DNA of 64,000 nucleotides from Phyllobates terribilis. Its lineage: Eukaryota. This document shows positions 13,837-28,800 of this stretch, piece by piece. Position numbers: made by a program. Where the stretch lies: NCBI RefSeq assembly GCF_046119375.1, contig NW_027362767.1, positions 257,548,001 to 257,612,000 of the forward strand. Reading direction: 5' to 3'. The stretch's first letter is position 1. Every line of letters begins with the position of its first letter.

Positions 13837-16800
13837 TCAGCAGTGGGGTCCTCCTGGGTCTCCTGCCATAGCATTTCATTTCATTCAAATGTGGATGGAA
13901 AATTCGGGCTGACACTGATGCCCCCTGAACTTGCAGGACAGCTTGAATTTCTTTGGAACGTGATTGGGGCTGCTTATCCATAATCTGGACTATCCTGTGT
14001 TGTAACCTTTCATCACATTTTCTCTGCCGTACACCTCCAGGGAGATTAGCTACAGTGCCATGGTTTGTAAACTTCTTGATTATGTTGCGTACCGTGGACA
14101 AAGGAACATCAAGATCTCTGGAGATGGACTTGTAACCTTGAGATTGTTGATATTGTTCAACAATTTTGGTTCTCAAGTCCTCAGACAGTTCTCTTCTCCT
14201 CTTGCTGTCCTCCATGCTTAGTGTGGCACACATAGACATACAATGCAAAGATTGAGTCAACTTCTCCCCTTTTTATCTGGTTTCAGGTATGATCTTCATA
14301 TTGCTCACACTTGTTACTTGCCGCAGGTGAGTTTGAACGGGCATCACAAGCTTGAAACAAAGTTGTTTACCCACAATATTAGAAAGGTGGCAACAATTTT
14401 GTCCGGCCCATTTTTGGGATTTTGTGTGAAATGATGTCCAATTTGCCTTTTTTTCTTGCGTTGTTCCAATACACATAAACATGTATAATAAAACGTGTGT
14501 GATTGTAATAATTTTCTGGGAGATATACGTCGTTTTCTGGAACAATTTCAAGAGTGCCAACACTTTCGGCCATGACTGTATATAGTGGCAAAGGCAGGTC
14601 TGGGTCTTGTAACTGTATAGAGGCTGCAGGTTCTAGGTCATGCAACTATATAGCAGAGACAGGTTCTAGGTCATGTAACTATATAGAAGAGACAGAGTCT
14701 GGGTCATGTAACTGTATAGAGGCTGCAGATTCTAGGTCATGTAACTATATAGAGGAGGGAACAGTTTCTGGATCATGTAACTGTATAGAGGCTGAAGGTT
14801 CTAGGTCATGTAACTGTATAGAGGAGGGAACAGTTTCTGGATCATGTAACTGTATAGAGGCTGAAGGTTCTAGGTCATGTAACTGTATAGAGGAGGGAAC
14901 AGTTTCTGGATCACGTAACTATAGAGGCTGAAGGTTCTAGGTCATGTAGCTGTATAGAGGAGGAGGCAGGTTCTGGATCATGTAACTGTATAGAGGAGGA
15001 GCCAGGTTCTGAATCATGTAACTGTATAGAGGCTGAAGGTTCTAGGTCATGTAACTGTATAGATGAAGAGTCGGGTTCTGAATCATGTAACTGTATAGAG
15101 GCTGAAGGTTCTAGATCATGTAACTGTATAGAGGAGGAGGAGGCAGGTTCTGGATCATGTAACTATAGAGTCTACAGGTTCTAGGTCATGTAACTATAGA
15201 GGAGGGGGCAGGTTCTGGATCATGTAACTATGGAGGCTGAAGGTCCTAGATCATGTAACTGTATAGAGGAGGAGGCAGGTTCTGGATCATGTAACTGTAT
15301 AGAGGCTGAAGGTTCTAGATCATGTAATTGTATGGAGGAGGGAACAGTTTCTGGATCACGTAACTGTATAGAGGCTGAAGGTTCTAGGTCATGTAACTGT
15401 ATAGAGGCTGAAGGTTCTAGATCATGTAACTGTATAGAGGAGGAGGCAGGTTCTGGATCATGTAACTATAGAGTCTACAGGTTCTAGGTCATGTAACTAT
15501 AGAGGAGGGGGCAGGTTGTGGATCATGTAACTATGGAGGCTGAAGGTTCTAGATCATGTATCTGTATAGAGGAGGAGGAGGCAGGTTCTGGATCGTAACT
15601 ATAGAGTCTACAGGTTCTAGGTCATGTAACTATAGAGGAGGAGGCAGGTTCTGGATCATGTAACTGTATAGAGGCTGAAGGTTCTAGATCATGTAACTGT
15701 ATAGAGAAGGAGGCAGGTTCTGGATCATGTAACTGTATAGAGGCTGAAGGTTCTAGATCATGTAACTATAGAGGAGGAGGCAGGTTCTGGATCATGTAAC
15801 TGTATAGAGGCTGGCTGAAGGTTCTAGGTCATGTAACTGTATAGAGGAGGAGGCAGGTTCTGGATCATGTAACTGTATAGAGTCTACAGGTTCTAGCTCA
15901 TGTAACTGTATAGAGGAGGAAGGTGGTTCTGGATCAGTAATGTATATGAAGGAGACGTATTCTGCGTTTAGATACCTGATATAAAATCCTTTCTGTATTT
16001 TCCTGCCCCTGTAGGTTCTCCCATGGATCCCCCTGGACACATCCATTTATACGAAACAGCTTTTGTCCAGAACGGTCGGGCAGTCACCGTTTTATGGGCG
16101 TCCTGCACCCTGTTTCTTGGGATCCTGGAGATTGTTGTCCTCCTGCAGCCCACCTGGGTATTAGGTGGGGAGGGCAGCGGACATTTTGGACTGTACCAGG
16201 TGTGCGCGGAGTCAGATTGGGGTACAGAATGTCGGGGTCCTGATGGCGTCCTGGAACCTCTCCCACCGTTCCAGACAGCGGCCGGCTTCATGCTGGGGGC
16301 TCTGCTGCTGGTCCTGCTCAGCCTGGCCTCCATCGTCCTGCTGTGGTTCTGTCACTCGGGCAGCGTCTACAAACTCTGCGCCTGGCTGCAACTGACCGCT
16401 GGTAATGGACGGGTGGGGGGGTCTCCATCTCAGGACGATTTCCATTAGTTTGATTTTATATTTAGCTTGCGGAGGATTGTCTATGCTGGACACAAGTGTC
16501 GCACACCCTCAGCCGGCGCATACACCCTGCATATCTTCATTCACTGACAGCAAGCAGAGGTTTTATAAATGGCAGAAGTGTTACCTCCTCATTGATTTAG
16601 TCTCTGTGTCTCTCCTTAGCTTTCTGCCAGGGGCTGGCCTGCATCCTCTTCCCTGACGGCTGGGACTCGCCCGCTGTGCGCCCCTTTTGTAACTACCGCT
16701 CAGACAGATACCAGTTGGGCACGTGCTCGGTGCACTGGGGCTTTATTCTGGCCATACTAGGAACCTTCGACTGTCTGGTCCTGTCTATTTTGGGGTTCAC

Positions 16801-25800: not shown

Positions 25801-28800
25801 TATAGTAGTTATATTCTTGTACATAGGAACAGTATTATAGTAGTTATATTCTTGTACATAGGAGCAGTATTATAGTAGTTATATTCTTGTACATATAGAG
25901 GGCAGTATTATAGTAGTTATATTCTTGTACATAGGGGCAGTATTATAGTAGTTATATTCTTGTACATAGGGACAATATTATAGTAGTTATATTCTTGTAC
26001 ATGGGGGCAGTATTATAGTAGCTATATTCTTGTACATAGGAGCAGTATTATAGTAGTTATATTCTTGTACATTGGAGCAGTACTACAGTAGTTATGTTCT
26101 TGTACATAGGGGGCAGTATTATAGTAGTTATATTCTTGTACATAGGGGGCAGTATTATAGTATCGTGTTGTACATAAGGGCAGTATTATAGTATGTGGTC
26201 TGGTCTTTCTTTGAGAGCTGGTATGAGTCATATTATTGTCCTTGTAATTCATTTCCATTCCTCTGCTGTCCTTGCACTTTCTGAGGCTGGCTGCATTACG
26301 CACAGCACGGAATAGATAATAATTAGATCTTGGTGACTCAGCAGAGAAGGAACTTCTGGATCGAGGGCCATTAAAATATAATGTCACCAGCTTATATCCA
26401 CTAGTCCTTGACTCGTCCTCGTCTATCTCTTTATATTCAGCAGTCTCTAGACTTAGACTCGGGGACCACTTTCCGGCCTCCGCAGGTGCAGTCACAAGCT
26501 TTCCTGGAATCCTGAACGGCTCGTTCACTTACCTATACACTGATGCATGTAATGAGATGTCTTCACCACTTAGAAGCCCCGGATATCTGTATCCTTCTTA
26601 TTGGTAACCTCCATTTCTCTTTTTTCCAGGGTTCATTTCAGACACCCCCTGATGACTGACATGACCGTGTGGATGAGCCACCGCTTTTGGATTTTCAGTG
26701 TTTGTCGATATCTGTGCCGATAATGTAAAAATGTTTTTTATTTTGTAATATTAAATTATTTCTTCCGTGTCGTCAGTGCACAGTGTGAATTATATCCACT
26801 GGAGTTCTGTTTTCCTCTGCTCTGTCCCACAAAGAGGCGGGGCTGCTGCAGATTTCAATAAAATGGTAGTTCCTGTATAGAAAGAGGGCGGAGCTTAAAG
26901 GGGTTTTCCACTTCAAGAAAAGTGGATCCCAAACACTTTTGTGTACGTAAAATAATAAGAAAAGCAAGTTATCACCCTTCCCTGGTCAAATGCCGGCTTT
27001 CCACCGCTGCTCCGGTCTCAGTGTTTTGGTTGCAGCAGTCACATCATGTGGACAGTGCACTTCACCTCTGCAGCTAATCACTTAGCTCGGCAGCCCATAC
27101 TATCTGCATAGGGCTCAGTGATTGGCTGCAGCGGTGATGTGACCTGTCGCCATGATGTCACTGCTCTAGCCAAAACACTGAGACCAGATGAAAAAGGGTG
27201 GGACAGAAGGTGATGTCGGTGCCACCGCAGTGCAGGAGTCAGGACGTTCATTGCCTGTGACTGCGCCGGTTTTGGGGCTTATATTTGTTTAGGGGTTCAG
27301 GCGTGGAATTTGTATTAGTTTAGGTGGTCTGTTTTGGGGTCTGTCTACTCGGCAACAGTTATAAATTTGCTAGTACAATCCAGAGACCCGAGCTGAAAAA
27401 GGAGTTGTGGCTTATAAAAAAACCCCTCTATCCTGGGAAAGAGAAAAAGAGGGTGAAATACTGCGAAGCAGGTACATAAACTATTGACTAAGTCAGTTCC
27501 CTAACCTCGCCCCATTCTTTATATGCACCCACACAGATATATTGCTCCTGATGAGGCTCATTAGTGTTCTCATACAGTATGACACTGATTTTATGGCCAC
27601 AACAGTGCCCCCACACACAGTATAATGCCCACACAGTCCCTCAATACAGTACAATCCCCCCACACCGTATGATTGCCCCCACACACATAGTAGGATGCCC
27701 ACACAGCCCCTCAACACAGTATGATTCCCACCCACACAGTGTGATGCCACCACAGACCCCCTCACGCAGTATGATGCACCCCCAATGCAGTATGATACCC
27801 GCAATACAGTATGATGCCCGCAATACAGTATGATGCCCCCCATTACAGTATGGTGCTCCAACACAGTATGATGCCCCCACAGTATTGCCCCCCAGACCAA
27901 TATAATGATTGCCCCTACAACCACTGACAAACTATGATGGCCCTACCAGGGGAGAACACTGACAGCAGAGGGCCCTTGTGCAATCTCTCCCTACAACGAC
28001 AGATTATAACCCCTGGCAAAAATTATGGAATCACCGGGCTTGGAGGATGTTCATTCAGATGTTTAATGTTGTTGAAAAAAAGCAGATCACAGACATGGCA
28101 CAAAACTAAAGTCATTTCAAATGGCAACTTTAGGGCTTTAAGAAACACTAAAAGAAATCAAGATAAAAAATGTGGTACTCAGTAGGGGTAATCTTTTTCA
28201 GACCAAGCAGAGGGAAAAAATTATGGAATCACTCAATTCTGAGGAAAAATTATGGAATCACCCTGTAAATTTTCATTTCCAAAACTAACACTTGCATCAA
28301 ATTAGATCTGCTCGTTAGTCTGCATCTAAAAAGGAGTGATCACACCTTGGAGAGCTGTTGCACCAAGTGGACTGACATGAATCATGGCTCCAACACCAGA
28401 GATGTCAATTGAAACAAAGGAGAGGATTATCAAACTCTTAAAAGAAGGTAAATCATCACGCAATGTTGCAAAAGATGTTGGTTGTTCACAGTCAGCTGTG
28501 TCTAAAATCTGGACCAAATACAAACATGGGAAGGTTGTTGAAGGCAAACATACTGGTAGACCAAGGAAGACATCAAAGCGTCAAGACCGGAAACTTAAAG
28601 CAATATGTCTCCAAAACAGGAAATGCACAACAAAACAAATGAGGAATGAATGGGAGGAAACTGGAGTCAATGTCTGTGACCGAACTGTAAGAAACCGCCT
28701 AAAGGAAATGGGATTTACATACAGAAAAGCTAAACAAAAGCCATCATTAACACCTAAACAGAAAAAAACAAGGTTACAATGGGCTAATGAAAAGCAATTG

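What the first reader, a model, noticed from the sequence alone, without database searches (positions are those of the whole stretch)
16023..26652. Divergent LHFPL3/4/5-type tetraspan next to PCSK1N: possibly a fourth ohnolog with no human counterpart
Seen: an intact 212-aa spliced ORF with all LHFPL hallmark motifs, but much more divergent than LHFPL3/4/5 are from each other (FVQNGRAV vs YVRNSRAI, QPTW vs QPYW, a short first loop, a unique KKGFISDTP tail). Established: LHFPL5 is a hair-cell mechanotransduction subunit and LHFPL3/4 (GARLH) are GABA-A receptor/neuroligin-2 auxiliary proteins. In human these genes lie on 7q22, 3p25 and 6p21, while PCSK1N is on Xp11.23 with no LHFPL3/4/5 beside it. 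Inference: this is a separate paralog from the vertebrate genome duplications, retained in amphibians and functionally uncharacterised, and a candidate ion-channel auxiliary subunit. It is the best candidate for new biology in the window.
Basis: partly seen in the sequence, partly recalled or inferred. Interest (0 to 1): 0.68.

Follow-up and report, generated by a model that had tools for sequence, protein, structure and literature searches.

The report
Divergent LHFPL tetraspan gene beside PCSK1N
An apparently intact gene for a four-pass membrane protein of the LHFPL3/4/5 group, much more divergent than LHFPL4 and LHFPL5 are from each other, lies tail-to-tail with the proSAAS gene and may be an extra ancient copy that mammals lack.

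Summary
Three GT-AG exons (16023-16401, 16620-16856, 26630-26652, + strand) add up to 639 nt, i.e. 212 codons plus a stop. I searched the exons one by one and never joined them. Exon 1 and exon 2 each match Pfam PF10242 (E 8e-19 and 3e-19) on adjoining profile positions, 2-116 and 120-181 of 181. Their only credible solved-structure matches are LHFPL4 and LHFPL5. Identity to those two is 35-48%, while they are 64-67% identical to each other over the same columns. It is therefore not the orthologue of LHFPL4 or LHFPL5. The loop disulfide cysteines and all three register tryptophans are kept. An intact PCSK1N lies 15.2 kb downstream on the opposite strand. The idea of a fourth ohnolog is plausible: by recall, LHFPL4/3/5 lie on 3p/7q/6p21, like FOXP1/2/4, and FOXP3 lies at Xp11.23 with PCSK1N. 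The tiny third exon has no homology support but has the best acceptor of 1765 AG sites. Verdict: a new, uncharacterised member of a known family, of moderate interest.

The parts
16023..16401 (+). Coding exon 1: 126 codons plus 1 base. Encodes the N-terminal cytoplasmic stretch, TM1, the first extracellular loop, TM2 and the start of TM3.
   Evidence: PF10242 E 8.2e-19, profile 2-116/181. LHFPL4 9faj_L E 2.3e-19 and LHFPL5 6c14_B E 8.1e-18. Hydrophobic windows at residues 23-41 and 89-107; GC3 0.67 against intron GC 0.47. Donor CTG|GTAATG.
16402..16619 (+). Intron 1 (218 nt, phase 1, GT-AG).
   Evidence: The profile and PDB-chain coordinates are contiguous across it.
16620..16856 (+). Coding exon 2: 2 bases, 78 codons, 1 base. 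Encodes the rest of TM3, the second extracellular loop with FPDGWD, TM4 and a basic C-terminal stretch.
   Evidence: PF10242 E 2.7e-19, profile 120-181/181. LHFPL5 6c14_B E 1e-19 and LHFPL4 E 8.3e-19. Hydrophobic window at residues 41-59. Donor AAG|GTAAGA.
16857..26629 (+). Intron 2 (9773 nt, phase 1, GT-AG), mostly tandem repeats plus a Tc1/mariner fragment.
   Evidence: 26-nt array at 17922-20023 and 35/71-nt array at 21218-26193. Transposase-like ORF at 23892-24221 on the - strand.
26630..26652 (+). Proposed coding exon 3: 2 bases, 6 codons, TGA. It gives the tail G-FISDTP. This is the weakest part of the model.
   Evidence: Of 1765 AG dinucleotides on the + strand between 16858 and 41800, this is the only one with at least 16 of 17 pyrimidines upstream and no AG in the preceding 15 nt. 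There is no homology support for the tail. Without splicing, exon 2 would end ...KKGKRKIKGV with a stop at 16880-16882.
26750..26755 (+). ATTAAA polyadenylation-like hexamer 98 nt after the stop; AATAAA follows at 26857.
   Evidence: This is a motif match only.
42776..43428 (-). Neighbour gene PCSK1N (proSAAS), upstream coding exon.
   Evidence: PF07259 E 6.4e-32, profile 19-182/269. Donor GT at 42775-42774.
41819..42116 (-). PCSK1N last coding exon, including the stop. It carries LLRVKR.
   Evidence: PF07259 E 9e-18, profile 182-269/269. Acceptor AG at 42118-42117, TAA at 41821-41819. That LLRVKR is the convertase-inhibiting hexapeptide of proSAAS is recalled.

Best explanation
This is a real, apparently intact protein-coding gene for a claudin-fold, four-pass membrane protein of the LHFPL family. 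It falls on the LHFPL3/4/5 side of the family and is distinct from the LHFPL4 and LHFPL5 orthologues. It has three coding exons and lies tail-to-tail with PCSK1N, 15,166 nt between the two stop codons. Its most likely origin is as the fourth copy left by the two vertebrate genome duplications, in the chromosome block that corresponds to human Xp11.23. That would make it the expected duplication partner of LHFPL4, lost in mammals. Its most likely mode of action (inferred) is that of its relatives. It would not be a pore but an auxiliary or anchoring subunit that packs its transmembrane helices against the transmembrane domain of a receptor, channel or adhesion protein, and so holds that partner in place. 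LHFPL5 does this with PCDH15 and TMC1, and LHFPL4 with GABA-A receptors. At the two N-terminal determinants that separate LHFPL5 from LHFPL3, it carries the LHFPL3-like state, so a GARLH-like role is more likely than the hair-cell role. Shown: family membership, gene structure, divergence, conserved fold residues, and the neighbour. Inferred: 2R origin, loss in mammals, expression, partner.
For: Each exon alone matches PF10242, on adjoining profile positions. In the solved-structure searches, 7 of 10 matches for exon 1 were LHFPL4/5 chains (the other 3 were Band 3 at E 0.13-0.33), as were 7 of 7 for exon 2 and 7 of 7 for the N-terminal 60 aa. Hand counts on the printed alignments give: exon 1 vs LHFPL4 47/116; N-terminal part vs LHFPL4 19/48 and vs LHFPL5 18/51; exon 2 vs LHFPL4 31/64 and vs LHFPL5 34/71. 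LHFPL4 vs LHFPL5 in the same columns is 32/48 and 39/61. Fold markers named for LHFPL5 in PMC6092121 (passages) are kept: Trp29, Trp132 and Trp177 correspond to W25 and W121 of exon 1 and W39 of exon 2 (3 of 3). The loop disulfide pair aligns with C61 and C70 against the LHFPL4 cysteines; equating that pair with LHFPL5 Cys68/Cys79 is inferred, because exon 1's alignment to LHFPL5 was printed only to residue 58. The Cys130 equivalent is C119. Splice sites are canonical, both introns are phase 1, and exon GC3 is 0.67-0.70 against 0.39-0.47 in flanking introns. Introns rule out a retrocopy. PCSK1N is intact next door. PMC11998571 (passages) argues that FoxP1-4 arose by 2R with pairs FoxP1/3 and FoxP2/4. 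By recall, FOXP1/LHFPL4 are on 3p, FOXP2/LHFPL3 on 7q, FOXP4/LHFPL5 on 6p21, and FOXP3/PCSK1N at Xp11.23. PMC10337519 (passages) calls LHFPL3 the closest homologue of LHFPL5, which fits the 7q/6p21 pair. N-terminus: PMC10337519 states that LHFPL5 differs from LHFPL3 by three extra N-terminal residues and by Ile13 in place of Leu. Here the residue aligned to Ile13 is Leu, and 8 residues precede it against 12 in LHFPL5.
Against: No phylogeny could be built, and only one syntenic neighbour lies in the window. The 85 + 143 other ORFs of at least 55 codons gave only transposase and ProSAAS Pfam families. The human map positions are recalled. The protein is about equally far from LHFPL4 and LHFPL5 (exon 1: 73.2 vs 68.2 bits; exon 2: 70.9 vs 73.8 bits), not visibly closer to LHFPL4 as the 2R pairing predicts. 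It keeps only 37 of the 71 columns in which the LHFPL4 and LHFPL5 chains agree (hand count), which could mean relaxed constraint. No LHFPL1/2/3/6/7 sequence was available for comparison. There is no expression evidence. Exon 3 has no homology support. A 33/69-nt tandem array ends 77 nt upstream of the ATG, so the promoter and 5' exon are unknown. The TM2 cysteine that PMC6092121 pairs with Cys130 seems absent, but I did not see that stretch in an alignment to LHFPL5.
Confidence: 0.55

Rival explanations
1. A lineage-specific (for example amphibian-only) DNA-level duplicate of LHFPL3, 4 or 5 that landed near PCSK1N and then evolved fast.
For: Strong divergence, with only 37 of 71 LHFPL4=LHFPL5 columns kept (hand count), is what accelerated evolution after a recent duplication could give. 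The region is crowded with transposons and tandem arrays.
Against: The protein is roughly equidistant from LHFPL4 and LHFPL5 in both exons, whereas a young duplicate should remain closer to its parent. The position beside PCSK1N matches the one paralogous block expected to lack an LHFPL gene (map positions recalled; 2R origin of the FoxP quartet from PMC11998571).
Confidence: 0.2
2. It is the species' own LHFPL3 orthologue, fast-evolving and relocated.
For: LHFPL3 could not be compared, since no LHFPL3 chain is among the solved structures. The nearest ESM Atlas cluster for exon 1 is automatically named an LHFPL3 family, score 0.93 (a lead only). The N-terminus shares the LHFPL3-like Leu and the shorter length.
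Against: [quoted passage not shown] Here only 7 of the 14 positions aligned to LHFPL5 residues 12-25 are identical. A true LHFPL3 should be about as close to LHFPL5 as LHFPL4 is, or closer, not 35-48%.
Confidence: 0.07
3. It belongs to the more distant LHFPL1/LHFPL2/LHFPL6/LHFPL7 side of the family and is misread as 3/4/5-like only because those proteins have no solved structure.
For: The solved-structure library returned only LHFPL4 and LHFPL5, so the search cannot discriminate. By recall, human LHFPL1 is X-linked.
Against: 40-48% identity over whole exons, with long shared runs such as VYK-x-CAW-x-QL and FPDGWD. PMC5640807 (passage) describes LHFPL1 and LHFPL2 as 'more distantly related' to LHFPL4 than LHFPL3 and LHFPL5 are.
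Confidence: 0.05
4. It is a silent or decaying relic: a recently inactivated gene whose reading frame happens to be still open.
For: There is no expression evidence. A tandem array abuts the 5' end, and 7.1 kb of the 9.8-kb intron 2 is tandem repeat. Many family-invariant columns have changed (hand count). CpG observed/expected over the exons is only 0.53-0.57.
Against: Both large exons are open and all four splice sites are canonical. The loop cysteines, 3 of 3 register tryptophans and the FPDGWD loop are kept. Many replacements are conservative (Y/F, I/L, F/L). Exon GC3 is well above intron GC.
Confidence: 0.1

Closest known systems
LHFPL4 (GARLH4), auxiliary protein of synaptic GABA-A receptors
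   Same: Same Pfam family. Best solved-structure match for exon 1 (E 2.3e-19) and near-best for exon 2 (E 8.3e-19). Collinear over TM1 to TM4, with the loop cysteines, VYK-x-CAW-x-QL and FPDGWD shared. It is the expected 2R partner under the paralogon argument (partly recalled).
   Different: Only 47/116 and 31/64 identical. The first loop is 8 residues shorter. QPTW replaces QPYW. The tail is different. Receptor-contact residues could not be compared, because no paper describing the 9faj-series structures was found.
LHFPL5 (TMHS), subunit of the hair-cell mechanotransduction complex
   Same: Best match for exon 2 (E 1e-19, 34/71 identical, and the alignment runs into the C-terminal stretch). 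The three register tryptophans and the Cys130 equivalent are kept. The loop cysteine pair is kept in the alignment to LHFPL4; its equivalence to LHFPL5 Cys68/Cys79 is inferred. Three coding exons, as the legend of figure 1B of PMC6974483 implies for Lhfpl5.
   Different: The N-terminal part is 18/51 identical. The N-terminus is 4 residues shorter, and the Ile13-equivalent is Leu, the LHFPL3-like state that PMC10337519 links to loss of normal transduction in mice. The TM2 cysteine partner of Cys130 is apparently absent.
LHFPL3 (GARLH3)
   Same: Member of the same close trio according to PMC5640807. The nearest ESM Atlas cluster for exon 1 carries this automatic name. The N-terminal length and Leu are LHFPL3-like.
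   Different: No LHFPL3 sequence could be obtained, so the likeness is untested. The indirect argument from LHFPL5 makes orthology unlikely.
Claudin / PMP22 / TARP (CACNG) / GSG1L tetraspans
   Same: The same four-helix plus beta-sheet fold class, according to PMC6092121, where claudin-15 fitted the LHFPL5 density. Atlas neighbours include claudin and PMP22 clusters at 0.86-0.91.
   Different: No Pfam match to PF00822 or PF13903 at E up to 0.01 for either exon. These are fold relatives, not the family.

Membership tests
LHFPL family (Pfam PF10242, L_HMGIC_fpl) | Match to the family profile above the curated cut-off (25.2 bits) | tested here: met
   Exon 1 scores 69.0 bits and exon 2 scores 70.6 bits, each alone, on profile positions 2-116 and 120-181 of 181.
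LHFPL family (Pfam PF10242, L_HMGIC_fpl) | Four transmembrane helices | tested here: inconclusive
   Hydrophobic 19-residue windows were found for TM1, TM2 (exon 1) and TM4 (exon 2). TM3 spans the exon 1/2 junction and was not scored, because the exons were not joined. Its two halves align to TM3 of LHFPL4/5, including the Trp132 equivalent.
LHFPL family / claudin-like fold | Conserved disulfide pair in the first extracellular loop, and register tryptophans in TM1, TM3 and TM4 | tested here: met
   C61 and C70 align with the loop cysteines of LHFPL4; that pair is taken, by inference, as the Cys68/Cys79 pair named for LHFPL5. W25, W121 and exon-2 W39 correspond to Trp29/132/177 of LHFPL5 as named in PMC6092121.
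LHFPL family / claudin-like fold | Predicted three-dimensional fold matches LHFPL5 or claudin structures | tested here: inconclusive
   Only exon 1 was folded, alone and without an alignment: pLDDT 64.6, pTM 0.37. The order helix, three strands, helix, helix fits, but Foldseek against the PDB gave 0 matches at E up to 0.001. No full-length model was made, because the joined step was left out.
LHFPL3/4/5 subgroup (GARLH/TMHS) | Closer to LHFPL3/4/5 than to LHFPL1/2/6/7 | tested here: inconclusive
   40-48% identity per exon to LHFPL4/5, with long shared motifs. No LHFPL1/2/6/7 sequence was available as a contrast. PMC5640807 calls LHFPL1/2 more distant.
LHFPL3/4/5 subgroup (GARLH/TMHS) | Three coding exons with introns at the family's positions | tested here: inconclusive
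   There are three coding exons here, and the legend of figure 1B in PMC6974483 implies three for Lhfpl5. The exact intron positions in LHFPL3/4/5 were not seen in any call.
Orthologue of LHFPL4 | Identity to LHFPL4 higher than the LHFPL4-LHFPL5 paralogue level | tested here: not met
   47/116, 19/48 and 31/64 identical to LHFPL4, against 32/48 and 39/61 between the LHFPL4 and LHFPL5 chains (hand counts).
Orthologue of LHFPL5 (TMHS) | Identity above the paralogue level, and the LHFPL5-specific N-terminal determinants (three extra residues, Ile13) | tested here: not met
   18/51 and 34/71 identical. Leu at the Ile13 position and an N-terminus 4 residues shorter.
Orthologue of LHFPL3 | Direct sequence comparison and the usual neighbours | not testable with these tools
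Fourth 2R ohnolog of LHFPL3/4/5 | Lies in the fourth paralogous chromosome block | tested here: inconclusive
   PCSK1N is the only other host gene detected in the window. The 2R origin of the FoxP quartet comes from PMC11998571. The human positions of FOXP1-4, LHFPL3-5 and PCSK1N are recalled.
Fourth 2R ohnolog of LHFPL3/4/5 | Forms its own gnathostome-wide clade in a family tree, and is present beside pcsk1n in several vertebrate classes | not testable with these tools
GARLH-type GABA-A receptor auxiliary protein | Conserved receptor- and neuroligin-2-contact residues, and inhibitory-synapse expression | not testable with these tools
   No paper describing the LHFPL4 complex structures (the 9faj series) was found. 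No expression data are available.

The most novel reading that the evidence does not exclude
The gene is the missing fourth gnathostome ohnolog of the LHFPL3/4/5 trio. It would be the Xp11.23-block partner of LHFPL4, kept beside pcsk1n in this lineage and lost in mammals, with its own receptor, channel or adhesion partner. That would complete a 4-fold paralogon alongside the FoxP1-4 quartet and add an unstudied auxiliary subunit to the tetraspans of vertebrate neurons or sensory cells.
Probability: 0.45. Interest if true: 0.55.

Novelty: new member of a known kind. Interest (0 to 1): 0.4.

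Why it matters
LHFPL5 is needed for hair-cell mechanotransduction, and LHFPL4 for clustering synaptic GABA-A receptors (PMC10337519, PMC5640807). A fourth close relative that mammals lack would be a natural comparison for asking which residues give each member its partner specificity. 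It would also be a candidate auxiliary subunit in non-mammalian neurons or sensory cells, and would fill a gap in a well-known four-fold paralogous block. If it is only a lineage-specific, fast-evolving duplicate, it is an ordinary annotation item.

Tried and rejected
(1) Exon 1 folded alone without an alignment gave a weak model (pLDDT 64.6, pTM 0.37). Its Foldseek search of the PDB gave 209 matches at E up to 10 but 0 at E up to 0.001, none an LHFPL or claudin chain among those listed. This is uninformative.
(2) The ESM Atlas gave an 'LHFPL3 family' cluster at 0.93 for exon 1 and mixed claudin-superfamily fragments at up to 0.91 for exon 2. These are leads only, with no ids or alignments.
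(3) A search for other host genes, to widen the synteny, covered 85 ORFs (1-15700, leaving out 23 ORFs of the retroelement stretch) and 143 ORFs (26700-49400) of at least 55 codons. It gave only Tc1/mariner-type HTH and DDE_3 families and ProSAAS. Exons under 55 codons, and families not in Pfam, would be missed.
(4) Paper searches. '9FAJ' gave 6 chance string matches. FOXP3/TFE3/paralogon terms gave 1 irrelevant paper. FOXP1-4 plus MITF plus genome duplication gave 0. PMC8040251 has no FOXP, MITF, TFE3, SRPK, GATA1 or PIM2 in its main text.
(5) Searches for an earlier description. 'lhfpl3-like', 'lhfpl4-like', 'lhfpl5-like', 'lhfpl3l', 'lhfpl5l' and 'lhfpl8' gave 0 papers. lhfpl + phylogen + duplication + vertebrate gave 14 papers, 13 listed; by title and abstract only PMC6974483 treats LHFPL evolution, and it deals with lhfpl5a/b. 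The mixed search found 146 papers, 15 listed, none on this.
(6) Look-ups of PubMed id 15905332, PMC1142366 and PMC2564584, made for family identity figures and exon structure, were not held.
(7) Rfam at gathering thresholds gave 0 matches and ARAGORN gave 0 tRNAs in the whole window.
(8) The ORF at 1-624 (- strand) has no Pfam family and only one PDB match at E 0.089. My impression that it resembles a retroelement RNase H is recall only.
(9) Rejected as a retrocopy, because it has two introns.

Full report
SCOPE AND LIMITS. The window has no N, and nothing in it was taken for human. The joined 212-residue protein was never assembled, searched or folded. So whole-protein scores, a score for TM3 (which spans the exon 1/2 junction) and a full-length structure model remain open. 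The one open genome collection holds only bacteria and archaea, and I did not use it. No vertebrate relative could therefore be fetched, and no tree or wider synteny could be made.

THE OBSERVATION. Read directly, the + strand carries an ATG at 16023 with an in-frame stop 19 codons upstream.
- Exon 1 runs to 16401 (donor CTG|GTAATG).
- Intron 1 is 218 nt.
- Exon 2 is 16620-16856, with a strong pyrimidine-rich acceptor and the donor AAG|GTAAGA.
- Intron 2 is 9773 nt.
- Exon 3 has a 23-nt coding part, 26630-26652, ending in TGA.
The lengths 379+237+23 = 639 give 212 codons plus a stop, and both introns are phase 1.

FAMILY. Exon 1 (126 aa) and exon 2 (78 aa) each match Pfam PF10242 (L_HMGIC_fpl) on their own, at E 8.2e-19 and 2.7e-19. 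They cover profile positions 2-116 and 120-181 of 181, so the two pieces abut in the profile.

Against the solved structures, exon 1 matched 10 distinct sequences at E up to 1. Seven were LHFPL4 or LHFPL5 chains (E 2.3e-19 to 7.4e-17), and three were Band 3 chains at E 0.13-0.33, which I take as chance. Exon 2 matched 7 of 7 LHFPL4/5 chains, and so did the first 60 residues. In chain 9faj_L, exon 1 ends at residue 125 and exon 2, from its second residue, resumes at 128. That leaves exactly the split codon and one residue, which is good support for the first intron.

HOW DIVERGENT. These are hand counts on the printed alignments.
- Exon 1 vs LHFPL4: 47/116.
- N-terminal part vs LHFPL4: 19/48; vs LHFPL5: 18/51.
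- Exon 2 vs LHFPL4: 31/64; vs LHFPL5: 34/71.
- The LHFPL4 and LHFPL5 chains, read against the same query columns, agree with each other at 32/48 and 39/61.
- Of those 71 agreeing columns, this protein keeps 37.
- The first extracellular loop is 8 residues shorter than in LHFPL4.
LHFPL3 could not be compared.

The fold markers survive. Three of three tryptophans that PMC6092121 (passages) used to set the register of TM1, TM3 and TM4 are kept. The loop disulfide pair is present in the alignment to LHFPL4; that it corresponds to the LHFPL5 pair named in PMC6092121 is inferred, because exon 1's alignment to LHFPL5 was printed only to residue 58. The Cys130 equivalent is present. Its TM2 partner seems not to be, but I did not see that stretch aligned to LHFPL5.

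Hydropathy finds TM1, TM2 and TM4. Exon GC3 is 0.67-0.70, against 0.39-0.47 GC in the neighbouring introns.

THE THIRD EXON. It encodes only G-FISDTP and has no homology support. A crude test favours it. Of 1765 AG dinucleotides on the + strand between 16858 and 41800, its acceptor is the only one with at least 16 of 17 upstream pyrimidines and no AG in the preceding 15 nt. ATTAAA and AATAAA follow 98 and 205 nt after the stop. The alternative is read-through of the exon 2 donor, which would end the protein eight residues later. Either way the four-helix core is the same.

SURROUNDINGS.
- PCSK1N is real and looks intact. Two - strand ORFs match PF07259 on adjoining profile positions (19-182 at E 6.4e-32; 182-269 at E 9e-18). 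They are joined by a GT-AG intron and end in TAA at 41821-41819, and the last exon carries LLRVKR.
- The two genes are convergent, with 15,166 nt between their stops.
- No other host gene was detected. 85 + 143 further ORFs of at least 55 codons gave only Tc1/mariner-type families and ProSAAS.
- Intron 2 is about 7.1 kb tandem repeat. A 33/69-nt array ends 77 nt before the ATG, so the promoter is not evident.
- An acceptor-like site 9 nt before the ATG suggests an untranslated upstream exon.

WHAT IT IS AND HOW IT PROBABLY WORKS. It is an LHFPL-family tetraspan, most like the LHFPL3/4/5 trio. [quoted passage not shown] It is not the orthologue of LHFPL4 or LHFPL5.

By analogy, it should act as a non-pore auxiliary subunit that binds a partner through its transmembrane helices. 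PMC6092121 shows LHFPL5 clamping the PCDH15 helix, and PMC5640807 shows LHFPL4 binding and clustering GABA-A receptors. This role is inferred, not shown.

PMC10337519 (passages) reports that only LHFPL5 restores transduction. It also reports that changing the LHFPL5 N-terminus to the LHFPL3 state (three residues fewer, Ile13 to Leu) makes mice deaf. Here the Ile13 position is Leu and the N-terminus is 4 residues shorter than in LHFPL5. I therefore rate a hair-cell TMHS-like role below a GARLH-like or new role.

ORIGIN. PMC11998571 (passages) argues from synteny that FoxP1-4 arose by the two vertebrate genome duplications, with pairs FoxP1/3 and FoxP2/4. From recall, not from a call, the human positions are FOXP1 and LHFPL4 on 3p, FOXP2 and LHFPL3 on 7q, FOXP4 and LHFPL5 on 6p21, and FOXP3 and PCSK1N at Xp11.23.

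On that map the only block without an LHFPL3/4/5-type gene is the PCSK1N block, which is where this gene sits. The statement that LHFPL3 is the closest homologue of LHFPL5 fits the 7q/6p21 pair, and would make this gene the partner of LHFPL4.

Against this, the bit scores show no preference for LHFPL4 (73.2 vs 68.2 in exon 1; 70.9 vs 73.8 in exon 2), and one neighbour is thin synteny. I put the ohnolog reading at about 0.45-0.5, a lineage-specific fast duplicate at 0.2, and smaller shares on a relocated LHFPL3 orthologue, a distant-subfamily member and a silent relic.

IS IT KNOWN? I found no description in print:
- 0 papers for six '-like' style names;
- 14 papers for lhfpl + phylogen + duplication + vertebrate, of which only PMC6974483 treats LHFPL evolution, and it concerns lhfpl5a/b;
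- nothing relevant among the 15 papers listed of 146.
Genome annotation pipelines may well already predict it. ESM Atlas clusters of LHFPL-type chordate proteins without a name exist. I could not check this.

VERDICT. It is a new, uncharacterised member of a known family, of moderate interest.

Noticed in passing
window 1-9550, - strand: This is the virus-like stretch, and it is described only. It is a retroelement with one ORF carrying a reverse-transcriptase domain (RVT_1, E 5.7e-28) and an upstream gag-like ORF that matches PF11560 LAP2alpha (E 1.8e-6). By recall, that pairing points to a DIRS-type retrotransposon. It is not intact. No RNase H, recombinase, integrase or methyltransferase family was found in any ORF of at least 55 codons there. 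The gag-like part holds one internal inverted duplication with 100% complementary 368-nt arms. One multi-kb palindromic repeat block lies between the RT ORF and the window start. Individual stops and frameshifts were not counted. The ORF at 1-624 runs off the window start and has no Pfam or credible PDB match.
   Followed up: partly
window 41819-43434, - strand: PCSK1N (proSAAS) appears intact over two coding exons joined by a GT-AG intron, and it carries LLRVKR in the last exon. The signal-peptide end was not located.
   Followed up: partly
window 49312-64000: A 33-nt satellite of about 453 copies, 93% matches, strongly C-rich on the + strand, runs off the window end.
   Followed up: no
window 14594-15946; 17922-20023; 21218-26193: Three tandem arrays frame the gene. 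A 33/69-nt array ends 77 nt before the ATG. A 26-nt array (81 copies) and a 35/71-nt array (about 140 copies) fill about 7.1 kb of the 9.8-kb intron 2.
   Followed up: no
window 31094-31666; 33292-34350; 36001-36790: Three arrays of one 54-nt repeat family lie in the intergenic stretch between the two genes, interleaved with transposase fragments.
   Followed up: no
window 13405-14272(-), 23892-24221(-), 28381-29127(+), 32058-32591(+), 35210-35572(-), 39135-40289(+), 43887-44601(-): At least seven Tc1/mariner-type transposase pieces, with Sleeping-Beauty-type HTH, HTH_Tnp_Tc3_2 and DDE_3 domains. One lies inside intron 2, and none was seen as one full-length ORF. Searches give family counts per batch, not per ORF, so only 28381-29127 and 39732-40292 were individually matched to a transposase family. 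The other assignments are by eye from the translations; the 23892-24221 piece in intron 2 was in no Pfam batch.
   Followed up: partly
window 16008-16022: An acceptor-like site (pyrimidine run, then AG) lies 9 nt upstream of the start codon. It suggests that the first coding exon is preceded by an untranslated exon further upstream. The start context is TCTCCCATGG.
   Followed up: no
whole window: No Rfam family reached its gathering score and ARAGORN found no tRNA gene.
   Followed up: yes
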